DNA of 64,000 nucleotides from Octopus vulgaris. Taxonomy: Eukaryota. A program made the translations under genes and the position numbers. The DNA is taken from NCBI GenBank assembly GCA_951406725.2, contig OX597832.1:30504001-30568000 (forward strand), written 5' to 3'. The notes under the pieces were generated by a model, which worked only from the letters and a program-made list of their open reading frames with translations, was not told the DNA's origin and searched no databases. Positions 13,530-58,703 of this stretch are shown here, one piece after another; position 1 is the first letter of the stretch, and each line of letters starts with the position of its first letter.

Positions 13530-13562
13530 GTATATAATATGTATATAATATGTATATATATA

Positions 13563-13960
13563 TACTCTTTACTCTTTTACTTGTTTCAGTCATTTGACTG
13601 CGGCCATGCTGGAACACCGCCTTTAATCGAGCAACTCGACCCCAGGACTTATTCTTTTGTAAGCCCAGTACTTATTCTATCGGTCTCTTTTGCCGAACCG
13701 CTAAGTGACGGGTACATAAACACACCAGCATCGGTTGTCAAGCAATGCTAGGGGGACAAACACAGACATACAAACACACACGCACACATATACATATATA
13801 CATATATACGGCGGGCTTCTTTCAGTTTCCGTCTACCAAATCCACTCACAAGGCTTTGGTCGGCCCGAGGCTATAGTAGAAGACACTTGCCCAAGGTGCC
13901 ATGCAGTGGGAATGAACTCAGAACCATTTGGTTGGTAAACAAGCTACTTACCACACAGCC
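13563..13960 (-). mobile_element. SINE family A, near full length
   Basis: Reverse complement of the 12780-13198 family; the two copies form an inverted pair. Confidence 0.9.
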
Positions 13961-20400: not shown

Positions 20401-20680
20401 AAGCCTTGTGAGTGGATTTGGTAGATGGAAACTGAAAGAAGCATGTCGTATGTTATATATATATGTGTGAGTGTGTGTGTGTCTGTGTCTATGTTTGTCT
20501 CCCACCATCGCTTGACAACCGATGTTGGTGCGTTTACGTCCCGTAACTTAGCGGTTCGGTAATTGAGCCCGATAGAATAAGTACTAGGCTTACAAGGAAT
20601 AAGTCCTGGAGTCGATTTGTTCGACTAAAGACGGTGCTCCAGCATGGCCGCATTCAAATGACTGAAACAAATAAAAGAAT
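20398..20680 (+). mobile_element. SINE family A, 5' truncated
   Basis: Homology to 12780-13198. Confidence 0.85.
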
Positions 20681-20750
20681 ATCGCGTGTGTACCGTTGGT
20701 GATTTTTTCCCTCCGTCTTCCCTTCCTTGGACTTTTCTTTGTTTTCCTAT

Positions 20751-21373: not shown

Positions 21374-21820
21374 TTTGTTTGTTGCTGTGTTTGTCTCCCA
21401 CCACCGCTTGACAACCGGTGTTTGTGTGTTACGTACCCGTAACTTAACGGTTCAGCAAAAGAGACCGGTAGAATAAGTACCGGGCTTTTTAAGAAAAATT
21501 ATGTACTTGGGTTGATTTATTCGACTAAAAATTCTTCAAGGCGGTGCCCCAGCATGGCCAGTCTATTGCCTAAAAGAAAAAAAAGATAAAAGATCATAAC
21601 CTCACCTAAACGCTCTGTGTATTCGAGTGGACAGTGCCCCTTGCCGGCTATAATTGATGTGGCGCAGTATTGGGCCCCTAACAAGGGATCACCGCATGCC
21701 CACACAATGGAATAAGTACTGGGCTTACAAAGAATATGTCCTAGGGTCGATTTGCTCGACTAAAGGCGGTGCTCCAGCATGGCCACAGTCAAATGACTGA
21801 AACAAATAAAAGAATAAAAA
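21270..21820 (+). mobile_element. two truncated SINE family A 3' parts
   Basis: 21270-21590 and 21709-21820 match the family A body and tail. Confidence 0.8.
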
Positions 21821-21860
21821 ATATTGGCTTAGATTTTCCTTTGGGGCTGGCCAGATCGGA

Positions 21861-21917
21861 GCAATCTCAAGATTAATCAGCCGAAATTGCGAAGATGATC
21901 CGGTTCTTGACTGAAGA
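21861..21917 (+). ncRNA. permuted (pseudoknotted) hammerhead-like motif
   Basis: gcaAT-C-tcaaga-N10-GAAA-ttgc-N14-tcttga-CTGAAGA. Confidence 0.6.
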
Positions 21918-22010
21918 TTGAAGGCTTCGAATGTCCCGTCCGTGTTTTTTGTATCGTCTTCTAAATGTTTTGCGTTCTTGTCCCAGTTTGTATTTTTTTA
22001 CATATACAAA

Positions 22011-22073
<63 letters not shown>

Positions 22074-22077
<4 letters not shown>

Positions 22078-22518
22078 ATTGAAGAAATGGAGCTGAACGA
22101 AGTTTGAACAGAAATCGTTTTATTTCATTCTACACGTGTTTCGAAAGGCACAATTTACCAAAATCCGATTGAATAATGAGACCATATTGTGTCTTTCTCT
22201 TCAGGAAGAAATAGGAAATCCGTTGGAAAAAACAAAAACAGAACAGAGGCGGAGCAAAACAAATCGAACTAAGCTCCTAAGAGCCCATGGCAAAACTGTT
22301 GCCATGGGCTCTTAGGAGCTTAGTTCGATTTGTTTTGCTCCGCCTCTGTTCTGTTTTTGTTTTTTCCAACGGATTTCCTATTTCTTCCTGAAGAGAAAGA
22401 CACAATATGGTCTCATTATTCAATCGGATTTTGGTAAATTGTGCCTTTCGAAACACGTGTAGAATGAAATAAAACGATTTCTGTTCAATCTTCGTTCAGC
22501 TCCATTTCTTCAATTCAC
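22074..22518. repeat. near-perfect 445-bp palindrome (220-bp arms, 5-nt loop), inverted Penelope-pLTR-like
   Basis: Arms 22074-22293 and 22299-22518 with one mismatch seen; element continues to ~22683 and sits between (TA)n tracts. Confidence 0.9.
22381..22470 (+). ncRNA. type I hammerhead ribozyme (mirror copy on minus strand at ~22122-22211)
   Basis: ttc-CTGAAGA-gaaagacacaat...attgtgcctttc-GAAA-c-acgt-GTA-gaa; stems I, II and III pair; palindromic ACACGTGT. Confidence 0.7.
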
Positions 22519-27649: not shown

Positions 27650-28176
27650 GTACAGGGGAATCTCCTTGTTGAGTCACCCTGGTAAAGTCTACGCTAGGGG
27701 CCTGAATTAGAGATGTGGGAAAGTTGCCGAGCCCAAGCTAGCGGAGGTACATTGTGGCTTCCGTCCATCACAACTCGCAAGATATTCATTCTGCAACAGG
27801 TCTTCAAGAAATAGTGTGAATATTACTTTCTAGATCTTGGAAAGGTATATGGCCGCGTGCTGCGGGACATACAGGAGGTGGGGATTAATGGGCAACTTTT
27901 GGTTGCTGTGGGGTCCCTATACGAAGGCCCAGATGTTTGTGTTCGGATAAATGTTGCTAAGTCGAAACTTTTCAACGTGGATATTGAATTTCGGTTGAGG
28001 TGCGCAATGTCACCTCGCCTTTCCATAGTTTTTATGAACAGGATTGACAAAGGCAGCCATTGTGGAAGTGATTTCACAAACGGTGGGTGTGGGGTTGGTC
28101 GGCTAATATTTGCAGACGATAGGATGCTGCTTGGCCATTCAGAAAGTGATCTCCAGCATGCACTGAATGTATTCGC
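27650..28176 (+). mobile_element. RTE-like LINE reverse transcriptase relic
   Basis: YRGISLLSHPGKVYAR, FLDLGKVY, MSPRLSIVFM and LIFADD motifs with stops and frameshifts; truncated by a SINE. Confidence 0.85.
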
Positions 28177-28346
28177 TGCCGTATTTCGTCTGCCGTTACG
28201 TTCTGAGTTCAAATTCCACCGAGGCCGACTTTGCCTTTCATCCTTTCGGGGTCGATAAATTAAGTACCAGTTGCGTACTGGGGTCGATCTAATCGACTGG
28301 CCCCCTCTCCCAAAATTTCGAGCCTTGTGCCTAGTGTAGAAAAGGG
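28177..28346 (+). mobile_element. SINE family B (tail variant 2)
   Basis: Core motif plus tail ggccccctctcccaaaatttcgagccttgtgcc. Confidence 0.85.
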
Positions 28347-38304: not shown

Positions 38305-38613
38305 TATGCGTGGCACCTTGGACAAGTATCTTCTATTATAATTTCGGATGACCAAAACCTTTTGAGCAGATATGGTAGACGGAAATTAAAGGAAGCCCGT
38401 CGTGTGTGTATGTGTATGTGTGTGTATCGCTTCACAACCGGATTTAGTGTGTTTATGTCCCCGTAACTTAGCGGCTCAACAAAGAGGCCGATAGAATATA
38501 AGTACCAGGCTTATAAACAAATAATTACGGGGATCGATTCGATAGACTAAATTCTTCCGGGCGGTGCGCCAGCATGGTCACAATATAATGACTGAAACAA
38601 GTAAAAGATAAAA
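38305..38613 (+). mobile_element. SINE family A, 5' truncated and diverged
   Basis: Homology to family A. Confidence 0.8.
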
Positions 38614-38659: not shown

Positions 38660-39125
38660 ATACACAGAAGGACAGAAAACGCAGAAGTTCACCAATTCTC
38701 CATCAGTTATCGACCGGAGAGTCAAACGCAATTTCGACCATTATCGATAATATTGCTTCCACTCTGGAGGCACCGACAAGAAACTTGCCGGCAATGGGAC
38801 CTAAAATTAACAAGACGAAACGGGCCCGAGACGAGACCCTTAATGGACGGACGGGGAAGCAAAACAATAAACAGAATTAAAGTTGTCTTCGTGTGGTCCT
38901 AAGCCTTTATTCTGTTTATTGTTTTGTCCCATGTCCGTCCATTAACGGTCTCGTCTAGAGCCCGTTTCGTTTTGCTATGTTTATGTCCCGTTCCCGACAA
39001 GTTTCATGTCGGTGCCCCCAGAATGGAAGCAATATTATCGATAATGGCTGAAATTGCGTTTGACCCTCCGGCCGATAACTGATGAAGAATTGGTGAACTT
39101 CTGTGCTTTCTGTTCACCTGTGCAT
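38660..39125. repeat. imperfect ~220-bp-arm inverted repeat, pLTR-like, each arm with a permuted hammerhead motif
   Basis: Arms ~38660-38880 and ~38905-39125; motifs at 39029-39085 (+) and 38700-38756 (-). Confidence 0.8.
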
Positions 39126-49606: not shown

Positions 49607-50603
49607 CACGGTGTTCAGGTTAAATTTGACTGTTTGCATAAAAGGTAAAGAAAACACAATATGCTATCCAAAAAAATAAGTATTTTTAAAGAACCAGAAA
49701 CTATCAGCTAAATTATCAGTGTTTGCTCGAAGCAGCCGTCCTCAGCTTCCATCACATCAGCCTTGGGATGGCTCTGGAACCTGGTACAAGCATTCCTCAC
49801 TGTGTGTCTGGGAAGGTCTTTGAACACCTCCTGGATGTTGCAAGCAGAGTGATTGGTGTCCTTGTTAACCGCGCCCCACACATAGTAATCCATGCGATTA
49901 CAATCGATGGAATTAGAAAGTCACAAATCGGTGCTGGTGAAGTCAACGAAATTCGCCGACCACCACTTCTGACTCTTTCCGGAGGTATGGCCAGGAACCG
50001 AATCCTGCTGCCACACATATGGCCTTTCAGCAGCAACTCTGTCCAACCAGACATTGATCACATTCTCCAGCAGCTTCACAGAACCGCCCGAAGCGAGCCC
50101 AAGGCCCTCTTCAAAGATGTGGCTATGAATCCTGCCCTGTGGACGCAGTGTGTGGACGCCTTCTGTGTCACTTCTTGCTGTAGTCCCCGTTGCAGCTGTC
50201 CGTATCATGTCTTTACAGCCTTTACAATGTTTGCAAAGCATTGAGCAGTAGTCATGATGTCGGTGTTTCGATAACCGACGCGAATCATCACGATACAGGT
50301 TACTCTTTCCCAATATTCGGATGGCTTCCAGTCCTCTTTCCCAATATTCGGATGGCTTCCAGTCCTCTTTCCCAATATTCGGATGGCTTCCAGTCCTCTT
50401 TCCCAATATTCGGATGGCTTCCAGTCCTCTTTCCCAATATTCGGATGGCTTCCAGTCCTCCATGTCAGCTAACTTTTTCTCGACCACAAACTATAATTTT
50501 TCTGCTCTCCAACGCCGTTCATTCTTCACCAATACATCAAACTGTTCCAAAAAAAACCAAAAAGGATACATAAAAAGTCGTCAAATTTAACCCAAACACC
50601 TTG
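49607..50603 (-). mobile_element. Tc1/mariner-superfamily (DD37D/maT-like) relic
   Basis: TIRs cacggtgttcaggttaaatttgac / gtcaaatttaacccaaacaccttg; WQQDSVPGH...DCNRMDYYVWG motifs. Confidence 0.8.
50303..50460. repeat. 31-bp minisatellite, 5 perfect copies
   Basis: ctctttcccaatattcggatggcttccagtc x5. Confidence 0.95.
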
Positions 50604-57333: not shown

Positions 57334-57461
57334 TACCTGACATTAGAAGCATATTCGTGGGGGCTTGTTTCTCTATTCTACCTCATATTTGTGCTTATAA
57401 GATCGAATGTTTTGCTTCTTTTAATAAAATTCAGTAATGTTTATATTTTCCAGTGTCCAAC

Positions 57462-58703
57462 ATGTATGCATTCAATGATCTCATAGTACGTACGTATATC
57501 ATATTTTTATTAACTAATAATTTTCTCGCCTCAGCTGACCCACCGTCAGCAAACTACGACAAACTACAACAATACAAACATGACATTTCTGTCCCAATTA
57601 ATGATTTTACTTTGAAAATATTCAAACAACTTCTTGATTCAAAGACAGGAAACATACTCTGGTCACCATTTCTTGTTAGTATCAGTCTGTCGTTCATTCA
57701 AATGGCTGATAAAATGAACTCTACAGAGAAAATCCAATCTCTGCTTTATCCATCTGTTTCATGGGAATTATTCCATCATAGTTTCACAGAATATTTGAAA
57801 ACTGTTCAAGATTTATCAAATTTCCAGTTATCCAATAAATTATATATTGATCCGGTAATTCTTCCGAACATCAACATTAATATTAGCAAATATTACTTTT
57901 TGGAAATAGATGAAATTAATCCAAGAACTATTGGTAAATTAAGTGATAAGTTCCATAAAAATAGAATCAACAATTTTATGTCATTTGGCAACACAAATGA
58001 AGAAATATTTGCTGTATTGGTGAACAGCTTGCATTTCCAAGGATTTTGGGAAAATCAATTTAACCGAAAGTTTACCATGAGAGAAACCTTTTATGTGACA
58101 GAAAAGCAAACAGAAGTTGTTGAAATGATGTATACAGAAAACTATTTTGCTATAAAGTCAGATGAACGTTTTAGTTTTAGGAGTCTAGAAATACCTTTGG
58201 CTGGCAACAGGTTTAGCTTCTACATCATTCTTCCGGATGATATTGAAGGAATTACATCAATAGAAAAACAGCTGACATCACGACTCTTGTGGCAAATTAT
58301 CGCCAATAAGGCTTCTCCGAGAAATGTTGCTTTGATTTTGCCCAAGTTTCAAATGAAATCTAACTTTACTTTTCAAGATATTTTATTCAAAGAAACGACT
58401 GACCATCTCTTCAATTTGGAAAATAACAACTTAACGAATACCCACGTTCACTTAATTGACATTCTTCACCAAGGTTTTCTCAATTTCAATGAACTGGGAA
58501 CAACAAGCAGTCCTGCTACTGTCCGAAAATCGAGTCATTTGATTGAAAAAAAAGCAAAACATGAAACCTCTTTCACTGTTAATCATCCATTTTTATTCTT
58601 TATTGTTGACAAAACTTCTTTCATGATTCTGCATCTGGGAAAATGCACTCACCCTGACAGCAGTACGGTACCCCATCAACAAAATACCCATGATGAGCTT
58701 TGA
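57462..58703 (+). CDS. serpin-family protein with signal peptide and C-terminal HDEL, single coding exon
   Basis: 413-aa ORF from ATG 57462, preceded by ttttccag acceptor at 57453; GNILWSPF, LVNSLHFQGFW, LILPKFQM, NELGT and FTVNHPFLFFI serpin motifs; ends HDEL*. Confidence 0.93.
   Translation: MYAFNDLIVRTYIIFLLTNNFLASADPPSANYDKLQQYKHDISVPINDFTLKIFKQLLDSKTGNILWSPFLVSISLSFIQMADKMNSTEKIQSLLYPSVSWELFHHSFTEYLKTVQDLSNFQLSNKLYIDPVILPNININISKYYFLEIDEINPRTIGKLSDKFHKNRINNFMSFGNTNEEIFAVLVNSLHFQGFWENQFNRKFTMRETFYVTEKQTEVVEMMYTENYFAIKSDERFSFRSLEIPLAGNRFSFYIILPDDIEGITSIEKQLTSRLLWQIIANKASPRNVALILPKFQMKSNFTFQDILFKETTDHLFNLENNNLTNTHVHLIDILHQGFLNFNELGTTSSPATVRKSSHLIEKKAKHETSFTVNHPFLFFIVDKTSFMILHLGKCTHPDSSTVPHQQNTHDEL

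What the first reader, a model, noticed from the sequence alone, without database searches (positions are those of the whole stretch)
21861..21917. Permuted hammerhead motif, second sequence family, with intact core and AUC triplet
Seen: gcaAU-C-ucaaga-uuaaucagcc-GAAA-uugc-gaagaugauccggu-ucuuga-CUGAAGA. Stem III is gcaau/auugc and stem I is ucaaga/ucuuga, both perfect. The sequence differs from the 49.2-kb copy, yet strand order and the 14-nt linker are the same. It lies in a ~185-bp element (21821-22005) that runs into a (TA)n tract. AUC is a cleavable triplet in canonical hammerheads, so this is the best native copy to test (inference).
Basis: partly seen in the sequence, partly recalled or inferred. 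Interest (0 to 1): 0.8.

Follow-up and report, generated by a model that had tools for sequence, protein, structure and literature searches.

The report
Split-core hammerhead fold in Naiad-type retroelements
The motif is the tail of an abundant Penelope-type jumping gene and carries every part of a self-cutting hammerhead RNA in a wiring I could not find in print, which also shows up in published Naiad elements that were reported to lack a canonical hammerhead; cutting itself has not been tested.

Summary
The motif is real. Stems I and III and the core are intact in S-G-C order. Three such sites occur in the window, against one in 1 of 400 shuffles, plus two decayed copies. That order is the published type-SGC permutation, but its stem II is absent: the bases after CUGAAGA do not pair with those before GAAA. 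Stem II is instead supplied from upstream (21845-50 with 21877-82), followed by the stem I-II joining helix. The chain is therefore opened between A9 and G10.1, a layout outside the six permutations of Eckert 2023. Among thousands of family contigs, 0 of 12 upstream-helix positions vary, against 6 of 10 after the core. Read by eye, 11 of 54 published Naiad consensus sequences share this split layout, and 7 carry intact type-CSG hammerheads. Naiads are Penelope-like elements said to lack canonical hammerheads. The best reading is a self-cleaving 3'-UTR ribozyme of Naiad-type elements. This copy is a 5'-truncated remnant that has lost two upstream strands, so it may not be the best one to test. 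Cleavage is untested, and no Naiad ORF is linked to it here.

The parts
21824..22019 (+). 3'-terminal remnant of a high-copy Penelope-like (Naiad-type) element, family A; 5'-truncated
   Evidence: 8796, 3811, 2196 and 1158 contigs laid in 4 of 4 runs (3 organisms); loose ends continue upstream of 21824; upstream neighbour is another repeat
21829..21844 (+). right arm of hairpin H; the left arm is missing in this copy
   Evidence: a complementary left arm is in the loose-end consensus (by eye: 13 bp with two bulges); the window sequence before 21824 belongs to another repeat
21845..21850 (+). strand a = 5' strand of stem II (starts with G10.1), supplied from upstream
   Evidence: 5 WC + 1 GU with 21877-82, -8.3 kcal/mol; no variant at 3% or more
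21850..21857 (+). helix b, 5' strand (the helix that joins stems I and II in types SGC and CSG)
   Evidence: 7 of 8 pairs with 21897-21904, -6.6 kcal/mol; 4 of 4 family variants keep or restore pairing
21861..21872 (+). block S: stem III 5' strand, U16.1 (21865), H17 = C21866 (predicted cut 3' of it), stem I strand
21873..21876 (+). 4-nt linker from stem I to stem II (typically 3 nt in type SGC)
   Evidence: PMC10085705
21877..21890 (+). block G: strand a' (ends with C11.1), GAAA 21883-86, stem III 3' strand
21897..21917 (+). helix b 3' strand (21897-21904), stem I partner (21905-10), CUGAAGA (21911-17)
21918..21927 (+). variable segment after the core; not stem II; tentative 3' strand of closing helix P0 (21920-24), whose partner is lost in this copy
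   Evidence: 6 of 10 positions variable; P0 partner read by eye table 7
22020..22073 (.). (TA)27 tract, the likely insertion target
   Evidence: (TA)n preference of Naiads in PMC8557442
30450..30575 (+). copy C2 (family C): complete split layout with P0 (30450-54/30571-75), H, a (30494-98/30530-34), b, III and I; H17 is G (30520), so probably dead
39029..39085 (+). copy B1 (family B): stems I and III and core intact, AUA triplet; stem II unresolved
38700..38756 (-). copy B2, inverted partner of B1; last core A changed to G

Best explanation
The sequence is the 3'-UTR ribozyme of a Naiad-type Penelope-like retrotransposon family, left as a short 5'-truncated insertion at a (TA)n tract. The RNA builds an ordinary hammerhead core from four separate strands in the order P0 - hairpin H - a - b - S - linker - a'-GAAA-III - b' - I' - CUGANGA - P0'. 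This is the same closed circle of helices as in the non-circular types SGC and CSG. The difference is that the chain is opened at the A9/G10.1 step, where helix P0 and hairpin H bridge the gap. SHOWN: the helices can form, recur in unrelated sequence families and are conserved across copies. INFERRED: the fold cleaves 3' of H17 (C21866 here). The cut can happen only once CUGANGA, the last core block, has been transcribed. The two products stay paired through II, b, III and P0, so the likely outcome is a nicked but still assembled 3' end of the element RNA rather than a released fragment. As for other PLE hammerheads, this would process long or tandem transcripts, possibly with help from the element's protein. 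I put catalytic competence of the family at about 0.75, and efficient cleavage of this truncated copy at about 0.5.
For: (1) Three S-G-C sites in the window; 1 of 400 shuffles had one. (2) An upstream 5-bp Watson-Crick match to the bases before GAAA is present in A, C1 and C2 (3 of 5 copies). Per-copy chance in a shuffled 30-nt stretch is 0.059, 0.032 and 0.047 (C1 and C2 are one family). In each case it abuts helix b. (3) Family A variation (classed): core 0/12, a/a' 0/12, I 1/12, III 2/8, linkers + N7 4/14, 10 nt after the core 6/10. Core + I + II + III against free positions is 3/44 against 10/24, Fisher p = 0.0009; a/a' against the after-core segment p = 0.003. The 4 variants in helix b all keep or restore pairs. 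(4) C1 against C2: 2 two-sided and 1 one-sided change in the 6 bp of stem I, 1 two-sided change in H, 3 one-sided changes in P0. (5) Published Naiad consensus sequences (PMC8557442 File S5, read by eye): 11 of 54 show the split layout with unrelated helix sequences (corals, other cnidarians, a ctenophore by file order, an ostracod, cephalopods). 10 of these 11 have G10.1-C11.1 and clear P0 + H. 7 of 54 (nematodes, a spider) show intact type CSG with the helix order of CSG-1/2, which cleave in vitro. (6) One extra base between A9 and G10.1 is a conserved feature of PLE hammerheads (PMC4209133) and is tolerated in CChMVd (PMC3705267). (7) (TA)n flanks, 5' truncation and the inverted B1/B2 pair fit Naiad insertion structure.
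Against: No cleavage or RNA-end data exist. No Naiad ORF is linked to family A, B or C: 0 of 170 low-complexity-filtered ORFs of 65 aa or more gave an RT or GIY-YIG Pfam hit, so Naiad membership rests on layout and context. The upstream 5-mer match fails in B1 and B2 (2 of 5 copies); B has only a 4-bp candidate about 70 nt upstream with one two-sided change. In family C a classical stem II with a 1-nt offset is possible (4 bp, 2 GU), though its duplex energy is 0.0 against -4.6 for the upstream helix and -7.4 for P0, which uses the same bases. G21889A (3-18% across runs) would break a stem III pair and no compensating change reached 3%. A21872T breaks the last stem I pair. P0 in family A is tentative: its 3' strand is the most variable part and not every variant keeps pairing. 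Single extra bases at position 10 can also be harmful (A10 to C or G), so a two-helix insertion there is not guaranteed to work. Pseudoknot-free folding does not give this fold, and rival helices of similar strength exist in copy A. A canonical PLE hammerhead needed protein to cleave and was not required for insertion in vitro (PMC11167929). The Naiad survey was by eye and 35 of 54 entries showed no such motif.
Confidence: 0.72

Rival explanations
1. The fold is real but no longer (or only conditionally) catalytic: a hammerhead-derived structure kept as the 3' recognition signal for the element's RT-endonuclease, or one that cleaves only when protein is bound.
For: The PAc hammerhead cleaves only with protein, is dispensable for insertion in vitro, and RNA-seq showed no ends at its site (PMC11167929). 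Metazoan PLE hammerheads cleave weakly in vitro (PMC4209133). The A9/G10.1 backbone link is broken here.
Against: All 12 core positions, including the cleavage triplet bases U16.1 and H17, are invariant in family A while N7 varies. That is the pattern expected of selection on catalysis. Sister Naiads carry intact CSG hammerheads in the same place.
Confidence: 0.17
2. It is a classical type-SGC hammerhead whose stem II is formed, weakly or after a small insertion, by the bases that follow CUGANGA.
For: Block order S-G-C, 4-nt I-II linker and joining helix as in HRIMA-1. Family C can form 4 bp at offset 1. Copy A can pair 21923-26 with 21879-82 (-5.0 kcal/mol) after a 5-nt insertion.
Against: 0-1 bp in register in copy A. 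The after-core segment is the most variable part of family A. In the 11 split Naiad entries the after-core bases do not pair with a', while the upstream strand does (by eye).
Confidence: 0.06
3. The parts assemble between two RNA copies (tandem pLTR or dimer), as for minimal PLE hammerheads.
For: Metazoan PLE hammerheads are thought to work as dimers. B1 and B2 lie side by side.
Against: All helices can close within one copy and stem III is a full 5 bp, with no palindromic mini-stem. The same helix circle works in monomeric CSG-1/2 constructs.
Confidence: 0.04
4. Chance arrangement of short words in repetitive DNA.
For: CUGANGA alone is at chance frequency. The same pattern in metagenomes gave only chance hits (0 of 118 with a 6-bp stem I).
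Against: The shuffle control, two-sided changes between C1 and C2, family conservation and recurrence across several animal phyla.
Confidence: 0.01

Closest known systems
Type-SGC (HRIMA-1 and variants) and type-CSG non-circularly permuted hammerheads (Eckert et al. 2023, PMC10085705; main text parts 1-5 of 8 and supplement passages read)
   Same: Same core, the same short linker from stem I to stem II, the same extra helix joining the other sides of stems I and II, and the same closed circle of helices. Block order S-G-C as in SGC. The nematode and spider Naiad motifs match the CSG-1/2 helix order.
   Different: Block C is interrupted: CUGANGA is not followed by the stem II strand, which comes from upstream. 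The paper assumes blocks cannot be interrupted and so counts six permutations. Two further helices (P0, H) sit at the A9/G10.1 step. The paper found SGC only in metatranscriptomes and CSG only in metagenomes, neither in a named organism's genome; here the motif is a high-copy animal genomic repeat.
'HHR_core' and 'HHR_half_core' annotations of Naiad Penelope-like elements (Craig et al. 2021, PMC8557442; passages and supplement files S1, S2, S5 seen in part)
   Same: Same position near the 3' end and the same (TA)n target, truncation and inversion pattern. Entries marked half_core (Ovul, Esco, Dst-4, Parc, Nbra-3, Hpol, Smim) resolve by eye into split or CSG hammerheads.
   Different: That paper reports that Naiads lack canonical hammerheads and leaves the core words unexplained. 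Several unmarked entries (Amil, Aacu, Anas, Obim, Nbra-1) also carry the fold. Families A, B and C of the window are not those consensus sequences.
[quoted passage not shown]
   Same: Hammerhead near the 3' end of a Penelope-like element, G10.1-C11.1 pair, tolerance of an insertion between A9 and 10.1.
   Different: Those are C-G-S circular permutations with a minimal palindromic stem III that work as dimers, and they have one inserted base. Here the order is non-circular, stem III is complete and the chain termini enter at that step. A canonical type-I example lies next door (22388-22461).

Membership tests
Hammerhead ribozyme class | Core CUGANGA, GAAA, A15.1-U16.1, H17 not G | tested here: met
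   copy A; invariant at the 3% level in the family
Hammerhead ribozyme class | Stems I and III flanking the core | tested here: met
   6 of 6 and 5 of 5 WC pairs; two-sided changes in family C
Hammerhead ribozyme class | Stem II ending at G12 with a G10.1-C11.1 pair | tested here: met
   formed with an upstream strand, 5 WC + 1 GU; met in A, C1 and C2, unresolved in B1 and B2
Hammerhead ribozyme class | Site-specific self-cleavage 3' of H17 | not testable with these tools
   only contigs were available; they cannot show RNA ends
Type-SGC permutation (Eckert 2023) | Block order S, G, C | tested here: met
Type-SGC permutation (Eckert 2023) | Short stem I-to-II linker and a helix joining the other sides of I and II | tested here: met
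   4-nt linker; helix b 7 of 8 pairs
Type-SGC permutation (Eckert 2023) | Intact block C: stem II strand follows CUGANGA within 0-2 nt | tested here: not met
   0, 0 and 1 bp at offsets 0-2 in copy A; region variable; a weak 4-bp option exists in family C only
Rfam hammerhead families (types I-III) | Score at or above the gathering threshold | tested here: not met
   0 matches in 64 kb
Naiad clade of PLEs | N-terminal GIY-YIG endonuclease, CxC linker and RT in one ORF | tested here: inconclusive
   no ORF is attached to these short remnants; 0 of 170 ORFs with an RT or GIY-YIG Pfam hit; no genome held
Naiad clade of PLEs | (TA)n insertion bias, 5' truncation, inverted adjacent copy | tested here: met
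   A, B1, C1 and C2 run into (TA)-rich tracts; B1/B2 inverted pair; shared with other PLE clades, so not diagnostic alone
Naiad clade of PLEs | No canonical hammerhead, core words only | tested here: met
   no canonical fold; same split layout as 11 of 54 Naiad consensus entries (by eye)
Non-LTR retrozymes | Tandem repeats each with a type-I hammerhead | tested here: not met
   single dispersed copies, non-type-I order (definition)

The most novel reading that the evidence does not exclude
Many Naiad retrotransposons across several animal phyla carry active, non-circularly permuted hammerhead ribozymes in two wirings. One is intact type CSG, of which only two unique natural sequences (from soil metagenomes) were known and which may themselves come from Naiads. 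The other is a seventh, previously undescribed topology in which the chain is opened between A9 and G10.1 and the core becomes a five-way junction. This would be the first non-circular RNA permutation in named animal genomes, at high copy number, and it would overturn both 'Naiads lack hammerheads' and 'there are six possible hammerhead permutations'.
Probability: 0.65. Interest if true: 0.9.

Novelty: new variant of a known kind. Interest (0 to 1): 0.84.

Why it matters
It answers a question left open in print: why Naiads, among the most abundant Penelope-like elements of invertebrates, seem to lack the hammerhead that other PLEs carry. It gives the non-circular permutations, so far known only from anonymous environmental sequence, a genomic home and a likely job. 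It also contradicts the published assumption that CUGANGA and stem II cannot be separated. If it cleaves, the A9/G10.1 step is a natural entry point into the hammerhead core, which matters for ribozyme structure, for search descriptors (current ones miss the whole class) and for switch design. The test is a single in vitro transcription gel.

Tried and rejected
Whole-genome search: no genome is held for this window. Rfam at gathering thresholds: 0 hits. Repeat finder on the whole window: swamped by microsatellites. Metagenome scan with the family A/B pattern: 118 stretches (about 40 of 64 parts scanned), 0 of 118 with a 6-bp stem I and 3 with 5 bp, judged chance. Expression: no RNA holder listed; the one 'RNA?' run laid was contigs and shows no ends (table 6 empty); this is no evidence either way. 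Pseudoknot-free MFE folding does not return the fold, as expected for a doubly pseudoknotted RNA. Pfam on 170 ORFs found no PLE protein. The helix-b row for copy C1 was out of register by one base, so no count is taken from it; the automatic b picks for B1, C1, B2 and C2 were also not used. The H and P0 rows for copy A are chance pairings with the upstream repeat and were rejected. Family B's stem II could not be fixed (two candidates). Naiad entries whose core words I could not parse into any hammerhead: Dst-3, several other part 17-19 hits, Skow-2 and all bivalve hits seen. A conserved 14-nt linker was rejected (15 nt in B1). A local hairpin after CUGAAGA as a conserved element was rejected for family A because the common variants break it. 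Searches of this scan's earlier findings by place and by sequence were empty.

Full report
Observation. The motif is present as described: stem III 21861-65/21886-90, AUC with H17 at 21866, stem I 21867-72/21905-10, GAAA 21883-86, CUGAAGA 21911-17. CUGANGA alone is at chance level in the window (25 against 25.5). A scan over all six block orders (stem I at least 6 bp, stem III at least 5 bp) gave three sites, all S-G-C: 21866 (+), 39034 (+) and 49209 (-). 399 of 400 shuffles had no S-G-C site at span up to 65, and 197 of 200 had none at span up to 110. BLAST of the three elements against the window added an inverted copy of the 39-kb family (B2) and a second copy of the 49-kb family (C2). The three families share no alignable sequence. 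Rfam reports nothing. The window is microsatellite-rich animal DNA; that it looks cephalopod-like is my recollection of its repeats and was not tested.

The known permutation and the missing stem. S-G-C is the non-circular type SGC of Eckert et al. 2023 (PMC10085705; parts 1-5 of 8 read). They found it only in metatranscriptomes. They also assume that CUGANGA and the adjacent stem II strand (block C) cannot be separated, which gives six possible permutations. In copy A that stem II does not exist: 0, 0 and 1 bp at offsets 0-2. Instead the six bases before GAAA pair with 21845-50, upstream of block S (5 WC + 1 GU, -8.3 kcal/mol, against -5.0 for the best partner after the core). The next strand, 21850-57, pairs with the end of the 14-nt linker (7 of 8). 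[quoted passage not shown] Both C copies show the same arrangement with other letters. They add a hairpin H that ends directly before strand a, and a helix P0 between the bases after the core and a strand just upstream of H (5 WC pairs in C2). A 5-bp match of this kind arises in 3-6% of shuffled 30-nt stretches per copy. It is present in A, C1 and C2 and absent in B1 and B2. Family B stays unresolved (4-bp candidate about 70 nt upstream with one two-sided change). Between C1 and C2, stem I has two two-sided and one one-sided change, H one two-sided change and one break, and P0 three one-sided changes. Against this, family C could also form a classical 4-bp stem II at offset 1 (2 GU, 0.0 kcal/mol), and C2 has G at H17.

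Family evidence. The 179-base stretch is held by 23 of 24 listed runs, 20 with half of its words or more, from four coded organisms. Four runs were laid: 8796, 3811, 2196 and 1158 contigs, so this is a high-copy repeat; summed contig depth is not a copy number. Positions with a variant at 3% or more were classed: core 0/12, a/a' 0/12, stem I 1/12, stem III 2/8, helix b 4/15, linkers and N7 4/14, and the 10 nt after the core 6/10 (3/44 against 10/24, p = 0.0009; a/a' against after-core p = 0.003). All four helix-b variants keep or restore a pair. Two variants go against the fold. A21872T breaks the last stem I pair. G21889A (3-18%) breaks a stem III pair with no partner change seen. These are unlinked column counts from contigs at 80% likeness or more, so they show constraint, not covariation. 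Loose ends show that other copies continue upstream of 21824. By eye, that sequence holds the left arm of hairpin H and a possible P0 strand. Copy A has lost both, and P0 is only tentative in this family.

Identity of the element. Four of the five copies run through a T-rich tail into TA-rich tracts, and B1/B2 form an inverted pair. Craig et al. 2021 (PMC8557442; passages) describe Naiad PLEs as (TA)n-targeting, 5'-truncated and often inverted. They found no canonical hammerheads in Naiads but noted unexplained 'HHR_core' and 'HHR_half_core' words. I read their consensus file S5 by eye around record ends and around CUGANGA hits. The hits seen were CTGATGA 1-15 and 21-50 of 62, CTGACGA 23 of 23, CTGAAGA 1-30 of 43 and CTGAGGA 25 of 25; words broken by a line end are missed. 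Record names follow from the next header and the order of sheet S1; five records are placed by file part only. Of 54 entries, 11 show the split layout of the window: Amil, Aacu, Anas, Dst-4, Obim, Ovul, Esco, one in part 8 (ctenophore by order, stem I only 2 bp), one in part 9 and two in part 12. In 10 of the 11, strand a begins with G and a' ends with C, and P0 and H are clear; Esco is degenerate. Seven entries show intact type CSG: Parc, Nbra-1, Nbra-2, Nbra-3, Hpol, Smim and one in part 15. Their helix order is that of CSG-1/2, which cleave at 0.004 and 0.026 per min. One entry in part 16 has a third arrangement, with stem II as a local hairpin before GAAA. The other 35, including all bivalve hits seen, gave nothing I could parse. 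The helix sequences differ freely between phyla while pairing is kept. No PLE ORF is attached to the window copies (0 of 170 ORFs), so their Naiad membership is inferred.

How it most likely works. SGC, CSG and the window form are openings of one circle: C - a - b - S - linker - a'-G-III - b' - I'. SGC opens it before S, CSG opens it before b', and the window form opens it between A9 and G10.1, with P0 and H bridging the gap. A single extra base at that step is a conserved trait of PLE hammerheads (PMC4209133, parts 1-2 of 4). It is also tolerated, depending on the base, in CChMVd (PMC3705267, passages). The natural core variants in the passages of PMC3088659 that I saw are insertions of 1-2 nt only. 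I infer self-cleavage after H17, about 140-150 nt before the element's 3' end, possible only after the last core block is made. The products would stay paired through II, b, III and P0, giving a nicked, assembled 3' end. The role in transposition is open: a canonical PLE hammerhead needed protein and was dispensable for insertion in vitro (PMC11167929, passages). AUC is cleavable but poor co-transcriptionally in one viroid context (PMC1636495, abstract).

Novelty. Eight full-text searches found no paper linking Naiads to permuted hammerheads or describing an interrupted block C. The 2026 retrozyme preprint (10.64898/2026.07.22.740005; part 1 of 5 and passages) mentions Naiads only in classification; its supplement is closed. 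The library lacks most subscription papers, and I did not see the figure pages or the SGC alignments of the Eckert supplement, which may bear on this. Earlier notes of this scan (unchecked AI notes) report a phage hammerhead entered through an extra core helix, CSG or rearranged hammerheads in PLE tails, and twisters in clam Naiads. These are leads in the same direction, not support.

Verdict. The feature is real and the structural model is well supported. It is a hammerhead by sequence and helix criteria and is not a member of type SGC as defined. It is most likely the 3' ribozyme of Naiad-type elements; activity is untested. New variant of a known kind; interest 0.84.

Noticed in passing
window 22074-22517: A 444-bp, 98.9% identical inverted repeat on the other side of the same (TA)n. 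Each arm carries a canonical type-I PLE-style hammerhead (cores at 22388 + and 22204 -; stem II 11 of 12 bp; palindromic zero-loop stem III; predicted H17 at A22461). It is a young insertion of a different PLE family.
   Followed up: partly
PMC8557442 File S5, nematode and spider Naiads: Seven consensus sequences carry textbook type-CSG hammerheads, a type published from only two unique soil-metagenome sequences. CSG-1/2 may be Naiad tails.
   Followed up: partly
PMC8557442 File S5, part 16 (hit 12): A third layout: block S, then stem II as a local hairpin before GAAA, then CUGAAGA followed directly by helix b. A9 is again not linked to stem II.
   Followed up: no
window 57438-58703 (+): An intronless 421-aa stop-to-stop frame with a full serpin domain (PF00079, E 3e-59).
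   Followed up: no
window 27815-28258 (+): A 147-aa frame that reads like a decayed RTE-type reverse transcriptase fragment (recalled motif likeness; no Pfam hit at E 0.001).
   Followed up: no
window 21405-21824 and at least eight other places (e.g. 13553-13777, 20475-20681, 38400-38613): A roughly 220-bp SINE-like repeat in many copies; two lie in tandem directly upstream of copy A.
   Followed up: no
window 49690-50490 (-): Frames that read like a decayed mariner/Tc1-type transposase (recalled likeness; no Pfam hit at E 0.001).
   Followed up: no
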